In this document: positions 3,806 through 25,357 of the stretch, piece after piece
How the letters are laid out: the number at the start of each line of letters is the position of its first letter
Position numbering within the stretch: position 1 is the first letter of the stretch
The notes under the pieces: generated by a model
The model's input: the letters and a program-made list of their open reading frames with translations, nothing else
Told to the model about the DNA's origin: nothing
Database searches by the model: none
DNA from: a virus
Lineage: Duplodnaviria > Heunggongvirae > Uroviricota > Caudoviricetes
DNA: 30,769 nt
Virus record (IMG/VR): IMGVR_UViG_2802429253_000014
Coordinates: 1 to 30,769 of that record
Reading direction: 5' to 3' (one strand)
Position numbers and translations under genes: made by a program

Positions 3806-4030
3806 ATGCAGGACAACGTAGATTTTATTCAGGAACAACAGGCTGAATTACTGGAGCGCCAGATTAACGCGTCAAGGGTAAAACATTTCGGTGCTTCTGC
3901 GCTGGTTTGCGAAGAGTGTGACGCGCCAATACCTGCTGCCCGTCGTGCGGCTTATCCGTCAGCCACGCGTTGTGTTTCCTGTCAGTCAGTCTTTGAAGCA
4001 AAAAACAAACATTACCGGAGAACGGCATGA
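3806..4030 (+). CDS. TraR/DksA-family C4 zinc-finger protein (P2 orf82 position)
   Basis: 74 aa with CEEC...CVSC four-cysteine motif in typical TraR spacing. Confidence 0.7.
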   Translation: MQDNVDFIQEQQAELLERQINASRVKHFGASALVCEECDAPIPAARRAAYPSATRCVSCQSVFEAKNKHYRRTA

Positions 4031-4302
4031 GTATTCGTATTGAAATTGGCGAACGTTATGTCGTTACCAGTGACAGCTTTCAGTTTATTCTCCACGAGAA
4101 AAAGAGAGCGGAAAGCGGTAAAAACGCCGGTCAGGAATGGCTGGCGGTGGTTGGTTATTACCCGAAATTAAGCCAGCTCGTTTCCGGCATGATGCATCAC
4201 GATATTCTGACCGGAAGCGCAAAATCTTTTGCTGATTTAAACGCGCAGGTTGAGCAACTCAGCAAGCGTTGTTCAGAGGCTTTTGGCTCACATGGCCGTT
4301 AA
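4027..4302 (+). CDS. hypothetical protein (P2 orf83 position)
   Basis: 91-aa ORF immediately upstream of and overlapping the A start. Confidence 0.6.
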   Translation: MSIRIEIGERYVVTSDSFQFILHEKKRAESGKNAGQEWLAVVGYYPKLSQLVSGMMHHDILTGSAKSFADLNAQVEQLSKRCSEAFGSHGR

Positions 4303-6601
4303 AGCCTCCGGGCGTTTTGTCCCTCCGTCAGCATTTGCCGCAGGCACCGGTAAGGCGTTTACCGGTGCTTATGCATGGAACGCGCCACGCGAGGCCGTCG
4401 GGCGAGAAAGACCTCTTACACGTGACGAGATGCGTCAGGTGCAAGGTGTTTTATCCACGATTAACCGCCTGCCTTACTTTTTGCGCTCGCTGTTTACTTC
4501 ACGCTATGACTACATCCGGCGCAATAAAAGCCCGGTGCACGGGTTTTATTTTCTCACATCCACTTTTCAGCGTCGTTTATGGCCGCGCATTGAGCGTGTG
4601 AATCAGCGCCATGAAATGAACACCGACGCGTCGTTGCTGTTTCTGGCAGAGCGTGACCATTATGCGCGTCTGCCGGGGATGAATGACAAGGAGCTGAAAA
4701 AGTTTGCCGCCCGTATCTCATCGCAGCTTTTCATGATGTATGAGGAACTCTGCGATGCCTGGGTGGATGCGCATGGCGAAAAAGAATCGCTGTTTACGGA
4801 TGAGGCGCAGGATCATCTGTATGGTCATGTTGCTGGCGCTGCACGTGCTTTCAATATTTCCCCGCTCTACTGGAAAAAATACCGTAAAGGACAGATAACC
4901 ACGAGGCAGGCATATTCTGCCATTGCCCGTCTGTTTAACGATGAGTGGTGGACTCATCAGCTTAAAGGCCAGCGTATGCGCTGGCATGAGGCGTTACTGA
5001 TTGCTGTCGGGGAGGTGAATAAAGACCGTTCTCCTTATGCCAGTAAACATGCCATTCGTGATGTACGTGCACGCCGCCAGGCAAATCTGGAATTTCTTAA
5101 ATCGTGTGACCTTGAAAACAGGGAAACCGGCGAGCGCATCGACCTTATCAGTAAGGTGATGGGCAGTATTTCTAATCCTGAAATTCGCCGGATGGAGCTG
5201 ATGAACACCATCGCCGGTATTGAGCGTTACGCCGCCGCAGAGGGTGATGTGGGGATGTTTATCACGCTGACCGCGCCGTCAAAGTATCATCCGACACGTC
5301 AGGTCAGAAAAGGCGAAAGTAAAACCGTCCAGCTAAATCACGGCTGGAATGATGAGGCATTTAATCCAAAGGATGCGCAGCGTTATCTCTGCCGTATCTG
5401 GAGCCTGATGCGCACGGCATTCAAGGATAATGATTTACAGGTCTACGGTTTGCGAGTCGTCGAGCCACACCACGACGGAACGCCGCACTGGCATATGATG
5501 CTTTTTTGTAATCCACGCCAGCGTAACCAGATTATCGAAATCATGCGTCGCTATGCGCTCAAAGAGGATGGCGACGAAAGAGGAGCCGCGCGAAACCGTT
5601 TTCAGGCGAAACACCTTAACCGGGGTGGTGCTGCGGGGTATATCGCGAAATACATCTCAAAAAATATCGACGGATATGCACTGGATGGTCAGCTCGATAA
5701 TGATACCGGCAGACCGCTGAAAGACACTGCCGCGGCTGTTACCGCATGGGCGTCAACGTGGCGCATCCCGCAATTTAAAACGGTTGGTCTGCCGACAATG
5801 GGGGCTTACCGTGAACTACGCAAATTGCCGCGCGGCGTCAGCATTGCTGATGAGTTTGACGAGCGCGTCGAGGCTGCACGCGCCGCCGCAGACAGTGGTG
5901 ATTTTGCGTTGTATATCAGCGCGCAGGGCGGGGCAAATGTCCCGCGCGATAGTCAGACTGTCAGGGTTGCCCGTAGTCCGTCGGATGACGTCAACGAATA
6001 CGAGGAGGAAGTCGAGAGAGTGGTCGGCATTTACGCGCCGCATCTCGGCGCGCGTCATATTCATATCACCAGAACGACGGACTGGCGCATTGTGCCGAAA
6101 GTTCCGGTCGTTGAGCCTTTGACTTTAAAAAGCGGCATCGCCGCGCCTCGGAGTCCTGTCAATAACTGTGGAAAGCTCACCGGTGGTGATACTTCGTTAC
6201 CGGCTCCCACACCTTCTGAGCACGCCGCAGCAGTGCTTAATCTGGTTGATGACGGTGTTATTGAATGGAATGAACCGGAGGTCGTGAGGGCGCTCAGGGG
6301 CGCATTAAAACACGGGCTGAGAACACCAAATCGTCAGCAGAGAAACGGAAGCCCGTTAAAACCGCATGAAATAGCGCCATCGGCCAGACTGACCCGGTCG
6401 GAACGATTGCAAATTACCCGTATCCGCGTTGATCTTGCTCAGAACGGTATCAGGCCTCAGCGATGGGAGCTTGAGGCGCTGGCGCGTGGGGCGACCGTAA
6501 ATTATGACGGGAAACAATTCACGTATCCGGTTGCTGATGAGTGGCCGGGATTTTTACAAACAGAAATTGTTTTTGGGATTAATAAGTTATCTCTAAGCTA
6601 A
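4292..6601 (+). CDS. A: replication initiation protein A (rolling-circle nickase)
   Basis: About 769 aa; near-identical to P2 gpA by recall (MAVKASGRFVPPSAFAAGTGKAF..., HWHMMLF HUH-type motif, ...AAGYIAKYISKN tyrosine region). Start chosen at ATG 4292, matching the P2 N-terminus, rather than the ORF-track start at 4250. Confidence 0.9.
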   Translation: MAVKASGRFVPPSAFAAGTGKAFTGAYAWNAPREAVGRERPLTRDEMRQVQGVLSTINRLPYFLRSLFTSRYDYIRRNKSPVHGFYFLTSTFQRRLWPRIERVNQRHEMNTDASLLFLAERDHYARLPGMNDKELKKFAARISSQLFMMYEELCDAWVDAHGEKESLFTDEAQDHLYGHVAGAARAFNISPLYWKKYRKGQITTRQAYSAIARLFNDEWWTHQLKGQRMRWHEALLIAVGEVNKDRSPYASKHAIRDVRARRQANLEFLKSCDLENRETGERIDLISKVMGSISNPEIRRMELMNTIAGIERYAAAEGDVGMFITLTAPSKYHPTRQVRKGESKTVQLNHGWNDEAFNPKDAQRYLCRIWSLMRTAFKDNDLQVYGLRVVEPHHDGTPHWHMMLFCNPRQRNQIIEIMRRYALKEDGDERGAARNRFQAKHLNRGGAAGYIAKYISKNIDGYALDGQLDNDTGRPLKDTAAAVTAWASTWRIPQFKTVGLPTMGAYRELRKLPRGVSIADEFDERVEAARAAADSGDFALYISAQGGANVPRDSQTVRVARSPSDDVNEYEEEVERVVGIYAPHLGARHIHITRTTDWRIVPKVPVVEPLTLKSGIAAPRSPVNNCGKLTGGDTSLPAPTPSEHAAAVLNLVDDGVIEWNEPEVVRALRGALKHGLRTPNRQQRNGSPLKPHEIAPSARLTRSERLQITRIRVDLAQNGIRPQRWELEALARGATVNYDGKQFTYPVADEWPGFLQTEIVFGINKLSLS

Positions 6602-6723
6602 GACGCTCAAAGCAAGAGATTATTTTACTGTACGTAGCCATCTGGAATTGTGGCTGTGTTAAAACGCTCGAGATTTTTTGGATATCCAGTTATACTCCGC
6701 TTAGAAATCATTCGGAGACTAAG

Positions 6724-7770
6724 ATGGCGGTAAAAGTTGTTGATCTTTTTTGCGGTGCTGGCGGTTTAACGCACGGCTTACATTTGGCCGGATTGGACGT
6801 TGTCGCAGGCATTGATTTAGAAGGTGAGTGTCGTGTTGCATACGAAAGCAATAATGATGCACTTTTTATTGAAAAAGATATATCTCTGGTGACAAAAGAT
6901 GAAATCGAAAATCTTTTTGAAGGGGCAAGTGTTAAAGTATTGGCCGGATGTGCACCTTGTCAGCCATTTTCTAAATATACTCAGGGAAAAGATAAAAAAA
7001 ATGATAAAAAGTGGCCGTTATTATATGAGTTTGAACGTTTAATAAAAGACACGAAACCAGAAATAGTTACAATGGAAAACGTTCCTGATGTGACAAAACA
7101 TTCTGTCTATGATGATTTTTATAATACCTTAATAGCATTGGGTTATTATGTTTGGGCAAATAAGATTGAATGTGTAGATTTTGAGGTTCCGCAAAACAGA
7201 GTGAGGCATGTATTACTCGCATCTAAATTTGCGCCGATTTCTCTGATGAAACCACAAACATCGGTAAAGCTGACAGTTAGGGATTGCATTGGTAATTTAC
7301 CTTCGATTGAAGCGGGACAAGCAGATCCAAAAGACCCTCTCCATAAGGCGAGTAGATTGAGTGAAATTAATCTCAAACGTATTCTACATTCAAAACCGGG
7401 GGGGACATGGAGGGATTGGCCTGCTGAATTAATCGCTTCATGTCATGCCAAGAAAAGTGGGCAGGGATATGCCAGTGTTTATGGTCGTATGTCTTGGGAT
7501 AAACCGAGTCCAACGATAACTACACTTTGTTATGGTTTTGGTAATGGACGTTTTGGTCATCCCGAGCAGCATCGTGCAATCTCACTTAGGGAAGCAGCAT
7601 TACTTCAAACGTTTCCTGTTACATATTCATTTACCCAACCGGGCGAGCCGATCAAAATGAAAAATGTCGGGCGTATGATAGGTAATGCTGTTCCTGTAAA
7701 CTTAGGTAAAGCGATTGGTCTTTCAATAGTACATCATTTGAAAGAGTTTCACCCCGCCGCTCTTAAATAA
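6724..7770 (+). CDS. DNA (cytosine-5) methyltransferase, Dcm-like
   Basis: 348 aa with canonical C5-MTase motifs in order: I FCGAGG, IV PCQPFS (catalytic Cys), VI ENV, VIII QNRVR, X GNAVP. GGAG Shine-Dalgarno; TATACT -10-like hexamer at 6691-6696. AT-rich relative to the phage core. Confidence 0.85.
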   Translation: MAVKVVDLFCGAGGLTHGLHLAGLDVVAGIDLEGECRVAYESNNDALFIEKDISLVTKDEIENLFEGASVKVLAGCAPCQPFSKYTQGKDKKNDKKWPLLYEFERLIKDTKPEIVTMENVPDVTKHSVYDDFYNTLIALGYYVWANKIECVDFEVPQNRVRHVLLASKFAPISLMKPQTSVKLTVRDCIGNLPSIEAGQADPKDPLHKASRLSEINLKRILHSKPGGTWRDWPAELIASCHAKKSGQGYASVYGRMSWDKPSPTITTLCYGFGNGRFGHPEQHRAISLREAALLQTFPVTYSFTQPGEPIKMKNVGRMIGNAVPVNLGKAIGLSIVHHLKEFHPAALK

Positions 7771-8468
7771 GCCTGAGTATCAAGATAAGTTTGTATATTT
7801 TCAAGGATGCAGTTGAGATAATGAAAAACTTCATCCTTCATTTCTGTTAGTGTATCAATAGATGTATCTCTGCCTTTGTTTCTAAATGATTCAGAACCAT
7901 GAGCAAGGTCGTTTCTGGCCTTTTTTATTGGAAGTAAATTGCAACCATTTCGCGTTATTTCTGAATCTGTATCTGCTGAGAAGCCATATTTTTCAGCGAC
8001 TTCTCTAATTTTTCTAGCATCAACATTTCCAGAAAATAACGGATTTTTATTTGATTGGATAAGTTTTTTGTGAGCGTTTAGCCACTCTTTAAATATAACT
8101 TTTGCAATGTTCCCTTGTGAGAAATCTATTTTCCCATTTGGTGATTGTAAACTATGAAATGCTACTCTTGTAAGGTTTTCATTTACAGTATCTGCACATA
8201 ATGATTCATTAGACATTAAAACATTATGAATGTCTTCTATTGCATTGGAAATGGTTGCTTCAATGAGATTGTACAATATAATAAATGCATTAGCCTTTAA
8301 AATATGAGTCATATCAATATCAATGGGTTGTTGTATAGGCGCATCGCTTGTATTCTCTTTATAGACTAGAGATGGTTTTTTGTTTATTAGTAACTGAATG
8401 AATGAGAAGTATTCATTAATATCTTGCATTCTTTCTTGGAAAAGAATTTTACTTGTCATCTCCTCCAT
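7749..8468 (-). CDS. HEPN-motif protein (predicted RNase-type effector)
   Basis: 239 aa; C-terminal ...KKARNDLAHGSESF... fits the HEPN Rx4-6H signature (R185, H190, coded at 7899-7916). Co-oriented 10 bp downstream of the DUF262 gene; very AT-rich. Family assignment is tentative and resembles what I recall as MAE_28990-type HEPN proteins. Confidence 0.65.
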   Translation of the reverse strand: MEEMTSKILFQERMQDINEYFSFIQLLINKKPSLVYKENTSDAPIQQPIDIDMTHILKANAFIILYNLIEATISNAIEDIHNVLMSNESLCADTVNENLTRVAFHSLQSPNGKIDFSQGNIAKVIFKEWLNAHKKLIQSNKNPLFSGNVDARKIREVAEKYGFSADTDSEITRNGCNLLPIKKARNDLAHGSESFRNKGRDTSIDTLTEMKDEVFHYLNCILENIQTYLDTQAYLRAAG

Positions 8469-8478
8469 TTACTTGGCC

Positions 8479-9630
8479 TCACTCCATATTTTCATCTTCA
8501 TCTTCATTTTCATCTTCGTCGACAATATTTTCTGGAATGTCTTTCCCAAGCAACTTGTTTTTTACATATTCAATGCGTGCTTTAACTTTGGGTTTAGAGT
8601 TGCTGGCATCTGAACGTGTGTGCGTGATAAACTCTTTCGAGTTGATCCAGTCATCAATATTTTTAGGAACTAAATTGGGTTCTTCCTCTAGTGCTAATGT
8701 TGCACCGACGGCAAGAGCTTCGAAACGAATCCTAGGAACAGTGGTGGCGTTTTTCACCTTTCTGAAACCATTTGGGAAATGTGTATTAATGAATTGGCAC
8801 ATTTTATGAAATTTTTCCGCCAGCATAGCTGCGTTTTCATCTGTATATTCGGCATTTTTACGTTTTAAATAGGTTGTAAGAAATTCATCAACGCTTTTTC
8901 TGAAATCAAGATATTCTTCAGTGTAGGCAAAGTAGCGTAGTGCCAATTCTGGATATTCAGAGCGACGTTTTCTTGCATCTCCCAAAGGACAGATGCTATG
9001 AAATAGAGGATCTTCGGAAATTTCATTGATAAATGCAAGGAATGGCCCATCATGGCTACCTTGCCGTTGTTCCATTGTTGTTAGTTTTTTTCCGCCAGTA
9101 TTCAGACGGTCAAAAATTTCCCTTCTTGTCTCTTCGTCACAATGTTCTGTAAGTTCAATCATTCGAATAGTTTTTCTATCAAAACGTAGGCGACGGGGAG
9201 TACTGAAATCAGAATATTTAAAACCATTGGCTGTGACTAATTTCTGCAGGCCTTCAAGAGTTAGTTTGTTATTGGTAAATTGGTGTAGGGTTCTTATTCG
9301 TTGGCTACCGTCAACAATTTCAAGTCTACCTTCATTTTCACCTGAACCAATATCGGCAACGAATATGTAAGGTATAGGAAGATTTAAAAGCAGAGATTCA
9401 ATGAAACGGGATTTTTGCTTGTTGTTCCAGATAAACTCCCTTTGGTAGTCAGGTATAAAAAGCTCTGCCTCATCTTCTTCAAGACCATTCTGAAATTTGT
9501 CCACAATAACACTTATCGGGAACTCACGTATTTCATGGTCAGTGATTTTTTGCATTTCAACTATGCTTTGATCTAAAAGCTCCTTTTCTTCTTTAGTTTT
9601 TGGGGTATGTTCTGCTTTTTTTCTCGCCAT
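8479..9630 (-). CDS. DUF262 (ParB/Srx-like, GmrS-type N-terminal domain) protein with poly-acidic C-terminal tail
   Basis: 383 aa; IPDYQREFIW, VDGSQR and FDRLNTGGKKL match the DUF262 signature (IPxYQRxxxW / DGQQR / RLNxxG). No His-Me/HNH (DUF1524) motifs found. C-terminus VDEDENEDEDENME. Confidence 0.8.
   Translation of the reverse strand: MARKKAEHTPKTKEEKELLDQSIVEMQKITDHEIREFPISVIVDKFQNGLEEDEAELFIPDYQREFIWNNKQKSRFIESLLLNLPIPYIFVADIGSGENEGRLEIVDGSQRIRTLHQFTNNKLTLEGLQKLVTANGFKYSDFSTPRRLRFDRKTIRMIELTEHCDEETRREIFDRLNTGGKKLTTMEQRQGSHDGPFLAFINEISEDPLFHSICPLGDARKRRSEYPELALRYFAYTEEYLDFRKSVDEFLTTYLKRKNAEYTDENAAMLAEKFHKMCQFINTHFPNGFRKVKNATTVPRIRFEALAVGATLALEEEPNLVPKNIDDWINSKEFITHTRSDASNSKPKVKARIEYVKNKLLGKDIPENIVDEDENEDEDENME
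8482..8520. repeat. imperfect hexanucleotide tandem repeat (TTCATC-like) encoding the acidic tail
   Basis: Plus strand ttcatcttcatcttcattttcatcttcgtc; reverse complement encodes DEDENEDEDE. Confidence 0.6.
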
Positions 9631-9769
9631 GAGCTTATTATCCTACTATGCGTGTGATTGCATTAAATTGCATGTTAAACAAAAGCATAATCTATATCAG
9701 TCAATCAGCCAGTGGCAAGGTGTTGTGATTACAATGCAACTGCATTAGAACCGACTCATGAAGCGGGCG

Positions 9770-9788
9770 GGCGAGGCGGGGAAAGCAC
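9770..9788. other. cos: cos site (19-nt P2 cohesive end sequence GGCGAGGCGGGGAAAGCAC)
   Basis: Exact match to the P2 cohesive-end sequence as I recall it, located just upstream of Q as in P2. Confidence 0.65.
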
Positions 9789-9930
9789 TGCGCGCTGGCG
9801 GTGGTGCTGATTTTATTTTTTCAGCGTCTCAGCGCGTCGTAATGGCGTTTAGATTGTGCGCCGGGGCGCTGGTGTGTCTGCGGGCTGTTTTGCGCGGAGG
9901 TGAGCGTGTGAGGGCGTGCTGACGGGGTGT

Positions 9931-9952
9931 AAAAAAGCCGCCCGCAGGCGGC
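9931..9952 (-). terminator. rho-independent terminator after Q (end of the P-Q operon)
   Basis: On the minus strand, GC hairpin GCCGCC-TGCG-GGCGGC followed by TTTTTT, starting 6 nt after the Q stop. Confidence 0.6.
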
Positions 9953-9957
9953 GATGT

Positions 9958-10992
9958 TCAGCCGTTGTCAGTGTCCAGTGAGTAGTTTTTAAAGCGGATG
10001 ACCTCCTGACCGAGCCAGCCGTTTATTTCCCGAATCCTGTCCTGTAGCGGGATAAGTTCATTGCGGACAAAGACCTTTGCCACTTTCTCAATATCACCCA
10101 GAGACCCGACGTTTTCCGGCTTGCCGCCCATCAACTGAAAGGGGATGCGGTGCGCATCCAGCAGGTCAGCGGCGCTGGCTTTTTTGATATTAAAAAAATC
10201 GTCCTTCGTCGCCACTTCACTGAGCGGGATAATTTTAATTCCGTCGGCTTTCCCCTGCGGGGCATAGAGAAACAGATTTTTAAAGTTATTGCGGCCTTTC
10301 GACTTAACCATGTTTTCGCGAAGCATTTCGATATCGTTGCGATCCTGCACGGCATCGGTGACGTACATGATGTATCCGGCATGTGCGCCGTTTTCGTAAT
10401 ACTTGCGGCGGAACAGCGTGGCCGACTCATTCAGCCAGGCAGAGTTAAGGGCGCTGAGATATTCCGGCAGGCCGTACAGCTCCTGATTAATATCCGGCTC
10501 CAGCAGGTGAAATACGGAGCCGGGCGCGAAAGGTGTCGGCTCGTTGAAGGACGGCACCCACCAGTAAACATCCTCCTCCACGCCACGGCGGGTATATTTT
10601 GCCGGTGAGGTTTCCAGTCTGATGACCTTACCGGTGGTGCTGTAACGCTTTTCCAGAAACGCATTACCGAACACCAGAAAATCCAGCACAAAGCGGCTGA
10701 AATCCTGCTGGGAAAGCCACGGGTGCGGGATAAACGTTGAAGCCAGAATATTGCGTTTGACGTAAATCGGTGAGCTGTGATGCACGGCAGCACGCAGGCT
10801 TTTTGCCAGACCGGTAAAGCTGATTGGTGGCTCATACCATCTGCCGTTACTGATGCATTCGACGTAATCCAGAATGTCACGGCGGTCGAGTACCGGCACC
10901 GGCTCACCAAAGGTGAATGCCTCCATTTTCGGAGCGCTGGCGGTGATTGTTTTTTCCGCAGGTTGCGGTGTTTTCCCTTTTTTCTTGCTCAT
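9958..10992 (-). CDS. Q: portal protein
   Basis: 344 aa, near-identical to P2 gpQ by recall (MSKKKGKTPQPA...); start overlaps the P stop (ATGA). Confidence 0.9.
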   Translation of the reverse strand: MSKKKGKTPQPAEKTITASAPKMEAFTFGEPVPVLDRRDILDYVECISNGRWYEPPISFTGLAKSLRAAVHHSSPIYVKRNILASTFIPHPWLSQQDFSRFVLDFLVFGNAFLEKRYSTTGKVIRLETSPAKYTRRGVEEDVYWWVPSFNEPTPFAPGSVFHLLEPDINQELYGLPEYLSALNSAWLNESATLFRRKYYENGAHAGYIMYVTDAVQDRNDIEMLRENMVKSKGRNNFKNLFLYAPQGKADGIKIIPLSEVATKDDFFNIKKASAADLLDAHRIPFQLMGGKPENVGSLGDIEKVAKVFVRNELIPLQDRIREINGWLGQEVIRFKNYSLDTDNG

Positions 10993-12764
10993 CAGTAAAA
11001 CTCCAGAATGGTGGATGTCAGCGGGGTGCTGATACCGGCGGTGAGTGGCTCATTTAACAGGGCGTGCATGGTCGCCCAGGCGAGGTCGGCGTGGCTGGCT
11101 TCCTCGCTGCGACTGGCCTCATAGGTGGCGCTGCGTCCGCTGCTGGTCATGGTCTTGCGGATAGCCATAAACGAGCTGGTGATGTCGGTGGCGCTGACGT
11201 CATATTCCAGACAGCCACGGCGGATAACGTCTTTGGCCTTGAGCACCATTGCGGTTTTCATTTCCGGCGTGTAGCGGATATCGCGCGCGGCAGGATAGAA
11301 CGAGCGCACGAGCTGGAACACGCCGACACCGAGGCCGGTGGCATCAATTCCGATGTATTCGACGTTGTATTTTTCGGTGAGTTTGCGGATGGATTCAGCC
11401 TGAGTGGCAAAGTCCATGCCTTTCCACTGGTGACGCTCAAGTATTCTGAATTTGCCACCGGCCACCACCGGCGGTGCCAGCACCACGCATCCGGCGCTGT
11501 CGCCACGGTGTGACGGGTCGTAACCAATCCAGACCGGGCGGGAGCCGAACGGATTGGCGGCAAACGGCGCATAGTCTTCCCATTCTTCCAGCGTGTCGAC
11601 CATGCAGCGTTGCAGCTCCTCGAACGGGAACACCGACGCCTTGTCGTCAACAAATTCACACATGAACAGGTTTTTAAAATCGTCGGCGCTGTTTTCGCGT
11701 TTAAGCTGCTCAATGTCGAACAGCGTGCAGCCACCTTTCAGGGCGTCCTCAATGGTGACAATCTGCCGCCACTGGCCGTCCGCACAGAGAAGCCCACCGG
11801 CAAGGGCGTTATGACTGACGTCGATTTCCACGCGTTCGGCGGCGCTGGCGCGTCCCCGGTTGAACAGTTCACCTGACCAGAACGGGTAGGCGTCGTGCGC
11901 CAGCGTGGACGGGGTGGAGAAATAGGTCGAGCGCAGGTGACTCTGTGAGGCCATACCTGATGCCACCTTACGCAGTACCTGAAAATTCGGGATCCAGAAA
12001 ATCTCATCGACGTACAGGTCGCCGTTATGGCTCTGCGCGGTGTTGGAGTTGGTGCCGAGAAAAATCAGTTTTGCGCCGTTATTGCCCAGGACAATCGGGT
12101 CACCGGTAAGGTCAACGTCCACCAGACGGGCAAAGGCGATGATGTATTCGCGGAACACATACGCCTGCGTTTTACTGGCCGACAGAAAAATCTGGTTATG
12201 ACCGGTTTTCAGGGCGCGCAGCAGTGCCTCGCGGGAAAAATAAAACGTCGCGCCAATCTGGCGGGATTTCAGGATATCGCGGATGCGGTGCTCAAGCCCG
12301 GCGCGATACCAGTGCAACTGATAGTCGAAAGACTGCTCAAAGAAAATCTGCTCCAGCTTTTCGATGGCCTCGTCACTGAAAAAATTCTTTTTCGGTTTGC
12401 GACGCCCGCCTTTGTTGCGGTTAGCGACGTTCGGATTAAGGTCTGCCTCGTTGCCGGTCTGGCTGTAGCGGTTTACCCGTGCCAGTCGTTCAATCTGGCG
12501 TCCCAGCAGGTCAATTTCCTTGAAGTCACCGCCGGTTTTCTGCGGTTTGATGATGAGCTGGGTCAGCCGCGCTTCCAGGCTCATTTCGACACGGCTGATG
12601 GGGGCAACGCTGTCCCAGCCGTCGCGCTGTTTCCAGCTCTGCACCGTCGGGCGTTTCATCTGCAACATGGCGGCAATCTGCGGCACGGAAAACCCCTGCC
12701 AGTACAACAGCGCCGCCTGACGACGCGGGTCGTGTAAAAGAGTGGTGTCTGTGGTGATGGTCAT
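10992..12764 (-). CDS. P: terminase large (ATPase) subunit
   Basis: About 590 aa, near-identical to P2 gpP by recall (MTITTDTTLLHDPRRQAALLYWQGF...). Start at ATG 12762-12764 with GAGG Shine-Dalgarno; the ORF-track start at 12794 is a TTG. Confidence 0.9.
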   Translation of the reverse strand: MTITTDTTLLHDPRRQAALLYWQGFSVPQIAAMLQMKRPTVQSWKQRDGWDSVAPISRVEMSLEARLTQLIIKPQKTGGDFKEIDLLGRQIERLARVNRYSQTGNEADLNPNVANRNKGGRRKPKKNFFSDEAIEKLEQIFFEQSFDYQLHWYRAGLEHRIRDILKSRQIGATFYFSREALLRALKTGHNQIFLSASKTQAYVFREYIIAFARLVDVDLTGDPIVLGNNGAKLIFLGTNSNTAQSHNGDLYVDEIFWIPNFQVLRKVASGMASQSHLRSTYFSTPSTLAHDAYPFWSGELFNRGRASAAERVEIDVSHNALAGGLLCADGQWRQIVTIEDALKGGCTLFDIEQLKRENSADDFKNLFMCEFVDDKASVFPFEELQRCMVDTLEEWEDYAPFAANPFGSRPVWIGYDPSHRGDSAGCVVLAPPVVAGGKFRILERHQWKGMDFATQAESIRKLTEKYNVEYIGIDATGLGVGVFQLVRSFYPAARDIRYTPEMKTAMVLKAKDVIRRGCLEYDVSATDITSSFMAIRKTMTSSGRSATYEASRSEEASHADLAWATMHALLNEPLTAGISTPLTSTILEFY

Positions 12765-23460: not shown

Positions 23461-24038
23461 TGGCTTTCAGAATGAGTGCAGAAGCACAAACTATCCGCGT
23501 TTTCAATTTACTTGATGGAACCAATGAGTTTATTGGCGAAAGTGATGCATATATTCCGCCGCATACAGGTCTGCCTGCAAACAGTACAGATATTGCACCG
23601 CCTGATATTCCTGCTGGTTATGCAGCCGTTTTCAATGCAGATGAAATGAAATGGGAACTGATGGAAGACCATCGCGGAAAGACCGTCTATGAAACGAAAA
23701 CGGGAGCAGCCATTTATATTTCTGAACTTGGCGTATTACCTCCAGACGTGACAGCCATTTCCCCGGATGGGGATTATCAGAAATGGAACGGAAATGCGTG
23801 GGTGAATGATGAGAATGCAGAGCGTGATGCGCTTGTCAGAGCGGCTGACTCTCAGAAGAAAGAGCTGATTGCATATGCAGGTGAAATTATTGCCACTCTG
23901 CAGGATGCTGTCGATTTAGATATGGCTACCGAGGAAGAAAAGTTAAGCCTGACACACTGGAAAAAATACCGTGTGCTACTGAATCGCGTTCAGCCGGAAG
24001 ATGCTCCGGATATAGAATGGCCTGAACTACCGCAATAA
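23460..24038 (+). CDS. G: tail fibre assembly chaperone
   Basis: 192 aa, start overlaps the H stop; position of P2 gpG. Confidence 0.8.
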
Positions 24039-24042
24039 ACAC

Positions 24043-24070
24043 AGGCGGGCTGATTGCCCGCCTTTTCTTT
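24043..24070 (+). terminator. rho-independent terminator after G
   Basis: Hairpin AGGCGGGC-TGATT-GCCCGCCT followed by TTTCTTT, starting 5 nt after the G stop. Confidence 0.7.
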
Positions 24071-24166
24071 ATCTGTTGTTTCATCCACTGGCCAGCCAGG
24101 TCAAATAGCGTCTCATGCTCTGCACAACAGAAAATAGTTGCACCCATTAACCACGGAGTTAAACGG

Positions 24167-25357
24167 ATGAGTGACTATCATCACGGCGTGCAGGTGCTGG
24201 AGATTAACGACGGCACCCGCGTCATTTCCACCGTATCCACGGCCATTGTCGGCATGGTCTGCACGGCCAGCGATGCGGATGCGGAAACCTTCCCCCTCAA
24301 TAAACCGGTGCTGATTACCAATGTGCAGAGCGCAATTGCAAAGGCTGGTAAAAAAGGCACGCTGGCGGCGTCGTTGCAGGCCATCGCTGACCAGTCAAAA
24401 CCGGTCACCGTTGTCGTGCGTGTTGAAGACGGCACCGGCGACGACGAAGAAACGAAACTTGCGCAGACCGTTTCCAATATCATCGGCACTACCGACGAAA
24501 ATGGTCAGTACACCGGACTGAAAGCCCTGCTGGCGGCGGAGTCGGTAACCGGTGTTAAACCGTGTATCCTCGGTGTGCCGGGGCTGGATACCAAAGAGGT
24601 GGCTGTTGCACTGGCATCAGTCTGTCAGAAGCTGCGCGCTTTCGGGTATATCAGCGCATGGGGCTGTAAGACCATTTCCGAGGTGAAAGCCTACCGTCAG
24701 AATTTCAGCCAGCGTGAGCTGATGGTCATCTGGCCGGATTTCCTCGCATGGGATACGGTCACCAGTACCACCGCCACCGCGTATGCCACCGCCCGTGCGC
24801 TGGGTCTGCGCGCTAAAATCGACCAGGAGCAGGGCTGGCATAAAACACTGTCCAACGTTGGGGTGAACGGTGTTACCGGCATCAGCGCATCTGTATTCTG
24901 GGATTTGCAGGAGTCCGGCACCGATGCTGACCTGCTTAACGAGTCAGGCGTCACAACGCTGATTCGCCGTGACGGTTTCCGCTTCTGGGGTAACCGTACC
25001 TGCTCTGATGACCCGCTGTTCCTCTTTGAAAACTACACCCGCACCGCGCAGGTGCTGGCCGACACGATGGCTGAGGCGCACATGTGGGCGGTGGACAAGC
25101 CCATCACCGCAACGCTGATTCGCGACATCGTTGACGGCATCAATGCCAAATTCCGTGAGCTGAAAACAAACGGCTATATCGTGGATGCGACCTGCTGGTT
25201 CAGCGAAGAATCCAACGATGCGGAAACCCTCAAGGCCGGAAAACTGTATATCGACTACGACTATACCCCGGTGCCTCCTCTCGAAAACCTGACCCTGCGC
25301 CAGCGTATCACCGATAAATACCTGGCAAATCTGGTCACCTCGGTTAACAGCAATTAA
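24167..25357 (+). CDS. FI: contractile tail sheath protein
   Basis: 396 aa, P2 gpFI by recall (MSDYHHGVQVLEINDGTR...). Confidence 0.92.
   Translation: MSDYHHGVQVLEINDGTRVISTVSTAIVGMVCTASDADAETFPLNKPVLITNVQSAIAKAGKKGTLAASLQAIADQSKPVTVVVRVEDGTGDDEETKLAQTVSNIIGTTDENGQYTGLKALLAAESVTGVKPCILGVPGLDTKEVAVALASVCQKLRAFGYISAWGCKTISEVKAYRQNFSQRELMVIWPDFLAWDTVTSTTATAYATARALGLRAKIDQEQGWHKTLSNVGVNGVTGISASVFWDLQESGTDADLLNESGVTTLIRRDGFRFWGNRTCSDDPLFLFENYTRTAQVLADTMAEAHMWAVDKPITATLIRDIVDGINAKFRELKTNGYIVDATCWFSEESNDAETLKAGKLYIDYDYTPVPPLENLTLRQRITDKYLANLVTSVNSN

What the first reader, a model, noticed from the sequence alone, without database searches (positions are those of the whole stretch)
6724..7770. Dcm-like C5 methyltransferase linked to the DUF262/HEPN operon: modification partner or stand-alone anti-restriction enzyme
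All hallmark C5-MTase motifs are present (FCGAGG, PCQPFS, ENV, QNRVR, GNAVP), so the enzyme is probably active. It sits convergently next to a putative nuclease module, an arrangement typical of restriction-modification cassettes. Either it protects self DNA from the neighbouring module, or it is an independent phage MTase that shields the phage from host restriction. A modification-dependent (type IV-like) DUF262 system next to a MTase would be an unusual pairing and would constrain the specificity of both.
Basis: partly seen in the sequence, partly recalled or inferred. Interest (0 to 1): 0.7.

Follow-up and report, generated by a model that had tools for sequence, protein, structure and literature searches.

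The report
Methylase partner of DUF262–HEPN defence cassette
The cytosine methyltransferase gene is real and intact, and comparison with about 160 related loci shows it is the regular third gene of a widespread, experimentally untested three-gene defence cassette (methylase + DUF262 + HEPN) that this P2-like prophage carries in its cargo hotspot, not a chance neighbour.

Summary
Observation confirmed. ORF 6724-7770(+) is an intact 348-aa C5 DNA methyltransferase with all five quoted motifs (Pfam PF00145, E=1.8e-54). Its 3' end overlaps by 22 bp a convergent HEPN (MAE_28990) gene, which follows a DUF262 gene.

The window is a P2-like E. coli prophage. The low-GC three-gene cassette sits in the known cargo hotspot between replication gene A and the portal gene.

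Among 80 loci from many phyla anchored on the DUF262 orthologue, HEPN always follows it. An orthologous methylase (45-89% identical) is directly adjacent in 68, in three different gene orders. One locus has a different C5 methylase, five are embedded in DISARM operons, five are cut by contig ends, and one has no methylase. The same methylase family also pairs with REase-like GHKL proteins and with DISARM.

The methylase is therefore a functional partner, most likely the self-marking arm of a restriction-modification-like system with an RNase effector. This triad was noted computationally in 2013. A distant two-gene relative (PD-T4-2) defends against T4 without a methylase.

The mechanism is inferred. 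An SspE-like model, in which the methyl mark licenses defence, is not excluded. This is a new member of a known but uncharacterised kind, of moderate interest.

The parts
6602..9713 (.). Low-GC three-gene cargo cassette in the P2 hotspot between replication gene A (4250-6601 +) and the conserved P2 cos/portal region
   Evidence: GC is 0.35-0.48 here against 0.51-0.60 in the phage backbone. Window 9714-9957 is conserved in about 2,150 E. coli genomes and 74 P2-like phages, whereas 6602-9713 is found in only 3 genomes at >=99% identity plus 4 at about 76%. RefSeq neighbours are the replication endonuclease and the portal protein.
6668..6696 (+). Candidate sigma-70 promoter for the methylase (TCGAGA-17-TATACT)
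   Evidence: Consensus scan, 9 of 12 matches. The number of such sites in the region is not above chance, so the evidence is weak. No + strand terminator-like site lies between the gene A stop and the methylase start, so read-through from the P2 early operon is also possible (inference).
6724..7770 (+). C5 DNA cytosine methyltransferase, 348 aa, intact, all catalytic motifs present
   Evidence: PF00145 E=1.8e-54. Best PADLOC matches are DrmMII 1.9e-89 and MTase_II 5e-84. It is 45-89% identical to the methylase adjacent to DUF262-HEPN in 64 other genomes. The region between motifs VIII and X, which includes the target-recognition domain, is the best conserved part.
7397..7403 (+). G7 homopolymer inside the methylase ORF (codons Pro-Gly-Gly)
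   Evidence: This is the only difference from phage P24B2 over 1,150 bp. P24B2 has G8 there, which frameshifts its methylase. The tract is G2-G3 in most orthologues, so it is lineage-specific.
7749..7770 (.). 22-bp overlap of the convergent 3' ends of the methylase and HEPN genes
   Evidence: ORF coordinates. In the convergent arrangement 29 of 37 loci overlap stop-to-stop, median -25 bp. No intrinsic terminator can sit between the genes.
7749..8468 (-). HEPN protein of the MAE_28990 family, 239 aa (RefSeq starts it at Met4, window 8459); predicted RNase effector
   Evidence: PF18737 E=7.6e-18, 65.9 bits against a cut-off of 26.8. The Rx4H motif R185-N-D-L-A-H190-G is at least 95% conserved in 65 family members, apart from D187. 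No PADLOC model matches even at E<=10. PHROG 3846, unknown function.
8479..9630 (-). DUF262 (ParB/Srx-fold, GmrSD N-terminal type) protein, 383 aa, without DUF1524; predicted NTP-dependent DNA sensor
   Evidence: PF03235 E=4.7e-28. PADLOC NsnA 5e-55 and PD-T4-2_A 9.3e-35. Motifs YQR..W (62-68) and DGSQR (107-111) are invariant in 20 sequences. AlphaFold2 model pLDDT 79.5, with only weak ParB and SspE fold matches.
9689..9718 (-). Candidate sigma-70 promoter for the DUF262-HEPN operon (TTGCCA-18-TAGATT)
   Evidence: Consensus scan; weak evidence. The DUF262 stop and the HEPN start are 10 nt apart here, and the family median is a 4-nt overlap, which indicates an operon.

Best explanation
The methylase is the modification component of a conserved three-gene defence cassette (C5 methylase + DUF262 ParB-like NTPase + MAE_28990 HEPN). 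The P2-like prophage carries this cassette as cargo in its A-Q hotspot.

Proposed mechanism:
1. The methylase uses SAM to place 5-methylcytosine at a fixed short motif on the chromosome and the prophage, marking self. This is inferred from the intact catalytic motifs. The motif is unknown; a TCGA core is an untested lead.
2. The DUF262 protein reads the methylation state of DNA in an NTP-dependent way (inferred from what is known of GmrSD, BrxU and SspE).
3. Incoming DNA that lacks the mark causes the co-translated HEPN partner to be released or activated. HEPN then cuts RNA and stops the infection or the infected cell (inferred from the conserved Rx4H motif). In the 2013 variant of this model, the ParB-like protein cuts DNA first and HEPN is a PrrC-like second line of defence.

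The genetic partnership is shown. The direction of the logic (unmethylated DNA as the target) and the effector chemistry are not.
For: 1. Linkage. 80 loci from species-representative genomes of Proteobacteria, Bacteroidota, Acidobacteriota, Planctomycetota, Verrucomicrobiota and Cyanobacteria were anchored on the DUF262 orthologue, taken as the best 80 of 524 relatives. HEPN follows DUF262 in every locus. An orthologous C5 methylase is adjacent in 68: convergent downstream in 37, co-directional upstream in 29, co-directional downstream in 2. One locus has a non-orthologous C5 methylase in the same place. Five are inside DISARM operons, two of which show the orthologue at the operon head. Five are cut by contig ends and one has no methylase.
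2. Tight packing. Median gaps are -4 nt for methylase-to-DUF262 and for DUF262-to-HEPN. The convergent 3' ends overlap in 29 of 37 loci.
3. Co-evolution. Mantel r=0.66 between the methylase and DUF262 identity matrices, p=0.001.
4. The triad moves as a unit. It is a bare three-gene island between housekeeping genes in Vibrio cholerae, sits in Moraxella phages, and occurs in a second E. coli P2 lineage at about 76% nucleotide identity.
5. The same methylase family is the modification arm of other restriction-type modules: GHKL-ATPase proteins that match PADLOC REase_II models at about 1e-91 to 1e-94, and SNF2/DISARM. Methylases paired with GHKL proteins are up to 73% identical to those paired with DUF262-HEPN.
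6. Literature. Table 1 of PMC3710099 lists this neighbourhood and proposes R-M plus HEPN multi-pronged defence. A distant DUF262+HEPN pair, PD-T4-2, protects against T4 (PMC9519451). A C5 methylase called DrmMII in a Serratia class 1 DISARM makes m5C at MTCGAK, and unmethylated sites enhance that defence (bioRxiv 10.1101/2021.12.28.474362).
Against: No experiment exists on this triad.
- PD-T4-2 was cloned as 1,824 bp without a methylase. It protects and is tolerated in K-12, so a DUF262-HEPN pair need not be autotoxic.
- In the Serratia class 1 DISARM, loss of both methylases causes no autoimmunity.
- Two natural loci have a frameshifted methylase next to intact DUF262 and HEPN ORFs: phage P24B2 (G7 to G8) and Neisseria weixii (C4 to C3). 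Both changes are in homopolymers and could be sequencing errors.
- One cyanobacterial locus (L073) has an intact pair and no methylase within 7 kb.
- The only DUF262 protein known to be genetically coupled to a modification module, SspE, is activated by the self mark rather than blocked by it (PMC10952713).
- The 80 loci are those most similar to the query, not a random sample of the 524.
Confidence: 0.6

Rival explanations
1. SspE-like licensing. The methylase is still an obligate partner, but its m5C mark on host DNA is what the DUF262 domain senses. The mark positions or activates the DUF262-HEPN complex, as phosphorothioate does for SspE. Under this model, losing the methylase abolishes defence instead of causing self-killing.
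For: DUF262 domains in GmrSD, BrxU and SspE recognise modified DNA: BrxU acts on 5mC and SspE senses phosphorothioate on self DNA (PMC10952713; PMC12707154). Loci with a frameshifted methylase and intact partners exist. PD-T4-2 is tolerated without a methylase and acts on T4, whose cytosines are modified (the T4 modification is stated from my own knowledge). The linkage data fit this model as well as the R-M-like one.
Against: The same methylase family serves REase-like GHKL partners and DISARM, where methylation protects self or marks non-targets. Methylases swap between these partners and DUF262-HEPN, which suggests a shared logic. This protein has no DUF1524 nickase domain like that of SspE.
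Confidence: 0.22
2. Coincidental neighbours. The methylase is an independent phage anti-restriction or orphan enzyme, and DUF262-HEPN is a self-sufficient (type IV-like or abortive-infection) system that happens to share the P2 hotspot.
For: P2 hotspots do stack unrelated cargo (PMC9519451). The genes are convergent here and so not one transcript. PD-T4-2 works alone. 29 of the 80 nearest methylase relatives on viral contigs lack both DUF262 and HEPN.
Against: Adjacency holds in 69 of 75 evaluable loci across phyla, in three gene orders, and outside phages. Methylase and DUF262 co-evolve. In 29 loci the methylase is in the same operon with 4-nt overlaps. Most methylase loci that lack DUF262 and HEPN have another restriction-type partner instead: 16 GHKL and 7 SNF2 of 29.
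Confidence: 0.07
3. Addiction module. The triad mainly stabilises the prophage or island by post-segregational killing, with HEPN as the toxin released when methylation decays. Phage defence would be a by-product.
For: The cassette is compact and mobile and occurs as a bare island. Its logic resembles R-M systems, which can act as selfish elements (general knowledge). HEPN toxins occur in toxin-antitoxin systems (PMC3710099).
Against: The cassette sits in hotspots and operons dedicated to defence: the P2 A-Q hotspot and DISARM. The relative PD-T4-2 defends in its native strain. This model is not mutually exclusive with the best explanation.
Confidence: 0.1

Closest known systems
MAE_28990 HEPN / ParB-like nuclease / DNA methylase gene neighbourhood (Anantharaman et al. 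2013, Biol Direct 8:15, Table 1)
   Same: The three components and their adjacency are the same. HEPN passes the Pfam PF18737 threshold, the DUF262 protein is ParB-like, and a DNA methylase is adjacent.
   Different: That entry is a single table line with a generic 'multi-pronged R-M plus RNase' proposal. It gives no gene orders, no counts, no phage or P2 context and no experiments. This work adds the three arrangements, the DISARM embedding and the partner swapping.
PD-T4-2 (Vassallo et al. 2022; E. coli ECOR65)
   Same: It is a two-gene DUF262 + HEPN pair that defends against T4. The DUF262 protein here matches the PD-T4-2_A model at 9.3e-35 over nearly its full length.
   Different: PD-T4-2 was cloned and works without a methylase. 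Its two ORFs span 1,540 bp against 1,882 bp here. The HEPN here has no match to any PADLOC model, including PD-T4-2_B, even at E<=10.
DISARM methylase DrmMII (class 2 Bacillus; class 1 Serratia sp. SCBI)
   Same: The best PADLOC hit of the methylase is a DrmMII model (1.9e-89, full length). Orthologues head class 1 DISARM operons. The Serratia DrmMII makes m5C at MTCGAK as a self mark.
   Different: The window has no DrmA, DrmB, DrmC or DrmD. I could not obtain the Serratia sequence, so orthology to that characterised enzyme is not tested.
Menshen (NsnABC)
   Same: The DUF262 protein matches the NsnA model best (5e-55, positions 41-377 of 385). Menshen loci are often next to methylases, and their authors ask whether ParB-DUF262 targets unmodified DNA (PMC12065111).
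   Different: There is no NsnB ATPase and no NsnC. The partner here is a HEPN protein.
GmrSD / BrxU type IV restriction and SspABCD-SspE
   Same: They share the N-terminal DUF262 NTPase domain with a DGQQR-type motif (DGSQR here). SspE is coupled to a DNA-modification module.
   Different: There is no DUF1524 His-Me nuclease domain. The modification is m5C made by a single methylase rather than phosphorothioate. Coupling to a methylase is the opposite of type IV logic.
Type II R-M pairs of the same methylase family with GHKL-ATPase REase-like proteins
   Same: The methylase family is the same (52-73% identical). Some of these pairs occupy the same P2 A-Q hotspot (L129-L132), in the same convergent or tandem layout.
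   Different: The effector is one protein of about 650 aa that matches REBASE-derived REase_II models, not a DUF262 + HEPN pair.

Membership tests
C5 DNA cytosine methyltransferase (PF00145 / TIGR00675 superfamily) | Full-length profile match above the curated cut-off, with motifs I (FxGxG), IV (PCQ), VI (ENV), VIII (QxRxR) and X (GNAVP) | tested here: met
   PF00145 scores 185.8 bits against 22. TIGR00675 scores 125.8 against 100.65. All motifs are present and invariant in orthologues.
E. coli Dcm / EcoRII-type CCWGG methylase (NF007772 PRK10458) | Subfamily model score above its cut-off | tested here: not met
   20 bits against a cut-off of 710. 'Dcm-like' holds only at superfamily level.
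MAE_28990 HEPN-ParB-methylase neighbourhood (Anantharaman 2013) | HEPN of family PF18737 with an Rx4H motif | tested here: met
   65.9 bits against 26.8. The motif RNDLAH at residues 185-190 is conserved.
MAE_28990 HEPN-ParB-methylase neighbourhood (Anantharaman 2013) | Adjacent ParB-like (DUF262) gene and adjacent DNA methylase gene | tested here: met
   Window gene order. The same triad occurs in 68 of 80 related genome loci.
PD-T4-2 | Component A (DUF262) | tested here: met
   PADLOC PD-T4-2_A at 9.3e-35, positions 55-357 of 363.
PD-T4-2 | Component B (its HEPN protein) | tested here: not met
   No PADLOC family matches the HEPN even at E<=10.
GmrSD / BrxU type IV restriction enzyme | DUF262 plus the DUF1524 His-Me nuclease domain | tested here: not met
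   Only PF03235 is found in the 383-aa protein. HEC-05, HEC-06 and SspE models match only the first 30-70 residues of the domain.
Menshen (NsnABC) | NsnA together with an NsnB ATPase and NsnC | tested here: not met
   An NsnA-like match is present (5e-55). The neighbouring genes are a HEPN protein with no PADLOC hit and a methylase.
DISARM | Core DrmA, DrmB and DrmC | tested here: not met
   The methylase matches DrmMII, but the flanking window genes are P2 replication and portal genes. DrmA, DrmB, DrmC and DrmD are present only in related loci such as L033.
Classical type II restriction-modification system | A cognate DNA endonuclease with the same specificity as the methylase | tested here: inconclusive
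   The DUF262 protein has only a weak, partial hit to a REase_II model (8.9e-07). DNA cleavage cannot be tested with these tools.
Classical type II restriction-modification system | Methylation of the target motif protects DNA from the partner | not testable with these tools
   This needs a methylome and plaque or transformation assays.
SspABCD-SspE type modification-sensing defence | A DUF262-DUF1524 effector with phosphorothioation genes | tested here: not met
   The cassette has no DUF1524 and no ssp or dnd genes. Only the logic remains a candidate.

The most novel reading that the evidence does not exclude
The triad is a widespread restriction-modification system whose restriction arm is not a DNase. 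A ParB-fold NTPase would read cytosine methylation at a family-wide fixed (possibly TCGA-core) motif and gate a HEPN RNase, so the DNA methylation state is converted into RNA cleavage or abortive infection. As a corollary, the extra 'DrmMII' of class 1 DISARM and the embedded DUF262-HEPN pair would belong together as one module.
Probability: 0.3. Interest if true: 0.7.

Novelty: new member of a known kind. Interest (0 to 1): 0.45.

Why it matters
If the partnership works as proposed, a common prophage cargo gives E. coli and many other bacteria an epigenetically gated RNase defence. Relatives occur in at least 524 species-representative genomes. It would also explain why a highly conserved C5 methylase family travels with several different effector modules.

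The work gives three clear, cheap experiments (methylome, cloning with and without the methylase, host-controlled modification) that separate an R-M-like mechanism from an SspE-like one for DUF262 proteins. The function of DUF262 proteins outside GmrSD and SspE is still open.

For annotation, it warns against labelling such methylases as 'orphan Dcm', or as 'DrmMII', without looking at the neighbours.

Tried and rejected
- **Motif depletion as a clue to specificity.** MTCGAK is rare in the window (8 observed against 25.9 +/- 5.2 expected). A P2-like phage without any methylase shows the same depletion (6 of 78 TCGA sites), so this is a backbone property and uninformative.
- **Fold search of the DUF262 model against the PDB.** Only weak ParB and SspE matches came back, none at E<=0.001. 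The C-terminal helical domain has no assignable function.
- **Finding the Serratia sp. SCBI DrmMII sequence, to test orthology with a methylase of known motif.** The last protein search, seeded with a DISARM-linked orthologue, returned no Serratia entry in its top 120. One Burkholderia member is labelled 'modification methylase HgiDII' by its source. This is a lead to a TCGA core, not a test.
- **Poly-G phase variation.** The G7 tract is not conserved in the family, so I do not propose it as a designed switch.
- **Promoter and terminator scans.** Candidate sites exist, but their number is at chance level.
- **Literature searches for an experimental study of the triad.** None was found. Rousset 2022 mentions neither DUF262 nor a methyltransferase.
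- **PADLOC, PHROGs and NCBIfam for the HEPN protein.** They give no functional name.

Full report
**Setting**

The window is a P2-like (Peduovirus) prophage of Escherichia coli.
- The stretch 6602-9957 occurs at 99.2-99.5% identity in three complete E. coli genomes and at 99.7% in phage P24B2.
- RefSeq annotation of those genomes places the three genes between the P2 replication endonuclease (gene A, window 4250-6601) and the portal protein (window 9958-10992).
- This is the known A-Q cargo hotspot that holds tin and old in P2 and many defence systems in its relatives (PMC9519451).
- GC content drops to 0.35-0.48 across the cassette, against 0.51-0.60 in the backbone, so the cassette is foreign cargo.
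- Only the last 244 bp or so before the portal gene (9714-9957) are shared with other P2 phages. The end of the linear P24B2 record maps to window 9769, which marks cos.

ORF 6724-7770(+) encodes 348 aa with FCGAGG (residues 9-14), PCQPFS (78-83), ENV (118-120), QNRVR (157-161) and GNAVP (320-324).
- It matches Pfam PF00145 over the whole profile at E=1.8e-54, and the TIGR00675 dcm superfamily above its cut-off.
- It is not a member of the E. coli Dcm subfamily: 20 bits against a cut-off of 710.
- The N-terminal half resembles M.HaeIII and M.HhaI. Residues 245-335 resemble the corresponding part of DNMT1.

The neighbours on the minus strand are as follows.
- A 239-aa HEPN protein of the MAE_28990 family (PF18737, 65.9 bits against 26.8). 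Its Rx4H motif RNDLAH (185-190) is at least 95% conserved, apart from D187, in 65 relatives.
- A 383-aa DUF262/GmrSD_N protein (PF03235, 4.7e-28) whose YQR..W and DGSQR motifs are invariant.
- The DUF262 protein has no DUF1524 nuclease domain, so it is not a GmrSD-type type IV enzyme.
- The methylase and HEPN genes converge and overlap by 22 bp.

**Is the methylase a partner or a bystander?**

I anchored a search on the DUF262 protein. An alignment of 20 homologues found 524 relatives in species-representative genomes, and I examined the 80 best, drawn from at least six phyla. ORFs in each locus were scored with the three window proteins and a HEPN profile. HEPN follows DUF262 in all 80. The methylase tally is in the table.

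| Arrangement | Loci |
|---|---|
| Orthologous methylase convergent downstream, as in the window | 37 |
| Orthologous methylase co-directional upstream (methylase, DUF262, HEPN) | 29 |
| Orthologous methylase co-directional downstream | 2 |
| A different C5 methylase in the convergent position | 1 |
| Pair embedded in a class 1 DISARM operon | 5 |
| Contig ends next to the pair | 5 |
| Intact pair, no methylase within 7 kb (Microseira, L073) | 1 |

- The adjacent orthologues score E=1e-99 to 1e-221 and are 45-89% identical to the window enzyme.
- Two of the five DISARM-embedded loci show the orthologous methylase at the head of the operon. In the other three the fetched flank does not reach that far.
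- Gene junctions are tight. The median is a 4-nt overlap for methylase-to-DUF262 and for DUF262-to-HEPN. In the convergent class, 29 of 37 loci overlap at their 3' ends.
- Methylase and DUF262 identity matrices are correlated (Mantel r=0.66, p=0.001).
- The triad also occurs as a bare three-gene island between housekeeping genes in Vibrio cholerae, in Moraxella phages, and in a second E. coli P2 lineage at about 76% nucleotide identity.

Linkage that survives changes of gene order, host phylum and genomic context is the classical signature of a functional unit.

**The reverse direction**

I anchored on the methylase in viral contigs (alignment A2). Of the 80 closest relatives, 50 sit next to both DUF262 and HEPN. 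Most of the 29 with neither are not orphans:
- 16 sit next to a GHKL-ATPase protein of about 650-760 aa. Three of these were checked against PADLOC and match REase_II models at about 1e-91 to 1e-94. Four of the 16 are in P2-like A-Q hotspots.
- 7 sit next to an SNF2 or DrmD-type helicase, which is DISARM-like.
- 1 sits next to a NERD helicase.

Methylases paired with GHKL proteins nest among those paired with DUF262-HEPN, at up to 73% identity. The methylase is therefore an exchangeable modification module used by several restriction-type effector modules.

**Specificity**

The stretch between motifs VIII and X, which includes the target-recognition domain, is the most conserved part of the family: mean column conservation is 0.72-0.84 for residues 221-300. 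This suggests one shared or closely related target motif.

There are two leads, and neither is tested.
- A class 1 DISARM from Serratia carries an extra C5 methylase (DrmMII) that makes m5C at MTCGAK. The best PADLOC hit of the window enzyme is a DrmMII model.
- One DISARM-linked orthologue is labelled 'HgiDII' by its source. From my own knowledge HgiDII recognises GTCGAC.

Site depletion in the window is not informative, because a methylase-free P2 phage shows the same depletion.

**Mechanism**

The genetic partnership is shown. The following is inferred.
- The methylase marks self DNA.
- The DUF262 ParB-fold NTPase reads DNA modification state, as its relatives in GmrSD, BrxU and SspE do.
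- HEPN is the effector RNase.

The 2013 survey of HEPN domains listed exactly this neighbourhood and proposed that HEPN acts as a PrrC-like second line behind a ParB-type DNase.

I favour R-M-like logic, in which unmethylated DNA is the target, because the same methylase serves REase-like partners and DISARM.

Several facts keep an SspE-like alternative alive, in which the self mark licenses defence:
- PD-T4-2, a distant DUF262+HEPN pair, was cloned without a methylase. It is tolerated and protects against T4.
- The Serratia DISARM shows no autoimmunity without its methylases.
- The methylase is frameshifted next to intact partners in phage P24B2 (G7 to G8 at window 7397-7403) and in Neisseria weixii. 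Both changes are in homopolymers and may be sequencing errors.

In this prophage the methylase lies directly downstream of the early operon, on the same strand, with no predicted terminator between them. It could therefore be made early after infection, before the opposing DUF262-HEPN operon. That would help a new lysogen survive. This is inference only.

**Comparison with known systems**

- The cassette meets every tested feature of the MAE_28990 / ParB / methylase neighbourhood.
- It fails the tests for GmrSD (no DUF1524), Menshen (no NsnB or NsnC), DISARM (no DrmABC) and PD-T4-2 (no match to component B at E<=10).
- PADLOC 2.0, PHROGs and NCBIfam give the HEPN and DUF262 proteins no functional name.
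- I found no experimental paper on the triad.

**Verdict**

The finding is real. Its first interpretation (modification partner) is well supported, and its second (a stand-alone enzyme by coincidence) is disfavoured. The pairing is typical rather than unusual. It is a new member of a computationally known but experimentally uncharacterised kind. Interest is moderate, because simple experiments could show whether a DNA methylation mark gates an RNase-based defence.

Noticed in passing
window 7397-7403; L085 (phage P24B2): A G7 run inside the methylase ORF is G8 in the otherwise identical phage P24B2. This splits its methylase while DUF262 and HEPN stay intact. It is either a homopolymer sequencing error or a natural methylase-off variant.
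   Followed up: partly
L025, L026, L027, L033, L068 (e.g. L033 61-16449): The DUF262-HEPN pair is embedded inside class 1 DISARM operons in the order C5 methylase, DrmD, DrmMI, DUF262, HEPN, DrmA, DrmB, DrmC. The extra 'DrmMII' of such loci may really belong with the embedded pair.
   Followed up: partly
L129-L132 (IMG/VR P2-like contigs), about 5000-8055: Other P2-like phages carry, in the same A-Q hotspot, an orthologous methylase (56% identical) paired with a convergent 652-aa GHKL-ATPase protein. One of the four (L130) was checked, and it matches PADLOC type II REase models.
   Followed up: partly
L170-L173 (Vibrio cholerae), 3907-6784: The triad occurs as a bare three-gene island (DUF262, HEPN, convergent methylase) inserted between housekeeping genes (an AbrB-family gene and a SpoU methylase gene), with no phage genes nearby.
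   Followed up: no
L166-L168 (Microcoleus), 4324-5693 in L166: These cyanobacterial loci keep an intact HEPN next to a truncated DUF262 (177-187 aa) and have no methylase. They look like decayed remnants of the system.
   Followed up: no
L022 (Neisseria weixii CP023429), about 10085: The methylase is split by a C4 to C3 change within the conserved KP(S/A)PTITT stretch, while the DUF262 and HEPN ORFs are intact.
   Followed up: partly
window 9714-9957: This non-coding stretch is conserved in about 2,150 E. coli genomes and 74 P2-like phages. The linear end of P24B2 maps to about 9769, so it contains cos. A strong terminator-like hairpin for the portal operon lies at 9937-9952 (-).
   Followed up: partly
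window 24038-24167: The second P2 cargo hotspot (the Z/fun position between tail-fibre assembly gene G and sheath gene FI) is empty here, with only a 128-bp gap.
   Followed up: partly
window 8479-8530 (C-terminus of the DUF262 protein): The protein ends in an acidic low-complexity tail (DEDENEDEDENME). The tail is unconserved and of variable length among relatives (381-383 aa in near-identical E. coli copies).
   Followed up: no
L035 (Holophagaceae), 9956-11194: A non-orthologous C5 methylase (412 aa, PF00145) occupies the convergent position next to DUF262-HEPN. This appears to be a replacement of the modification module.
   Followed up: partly
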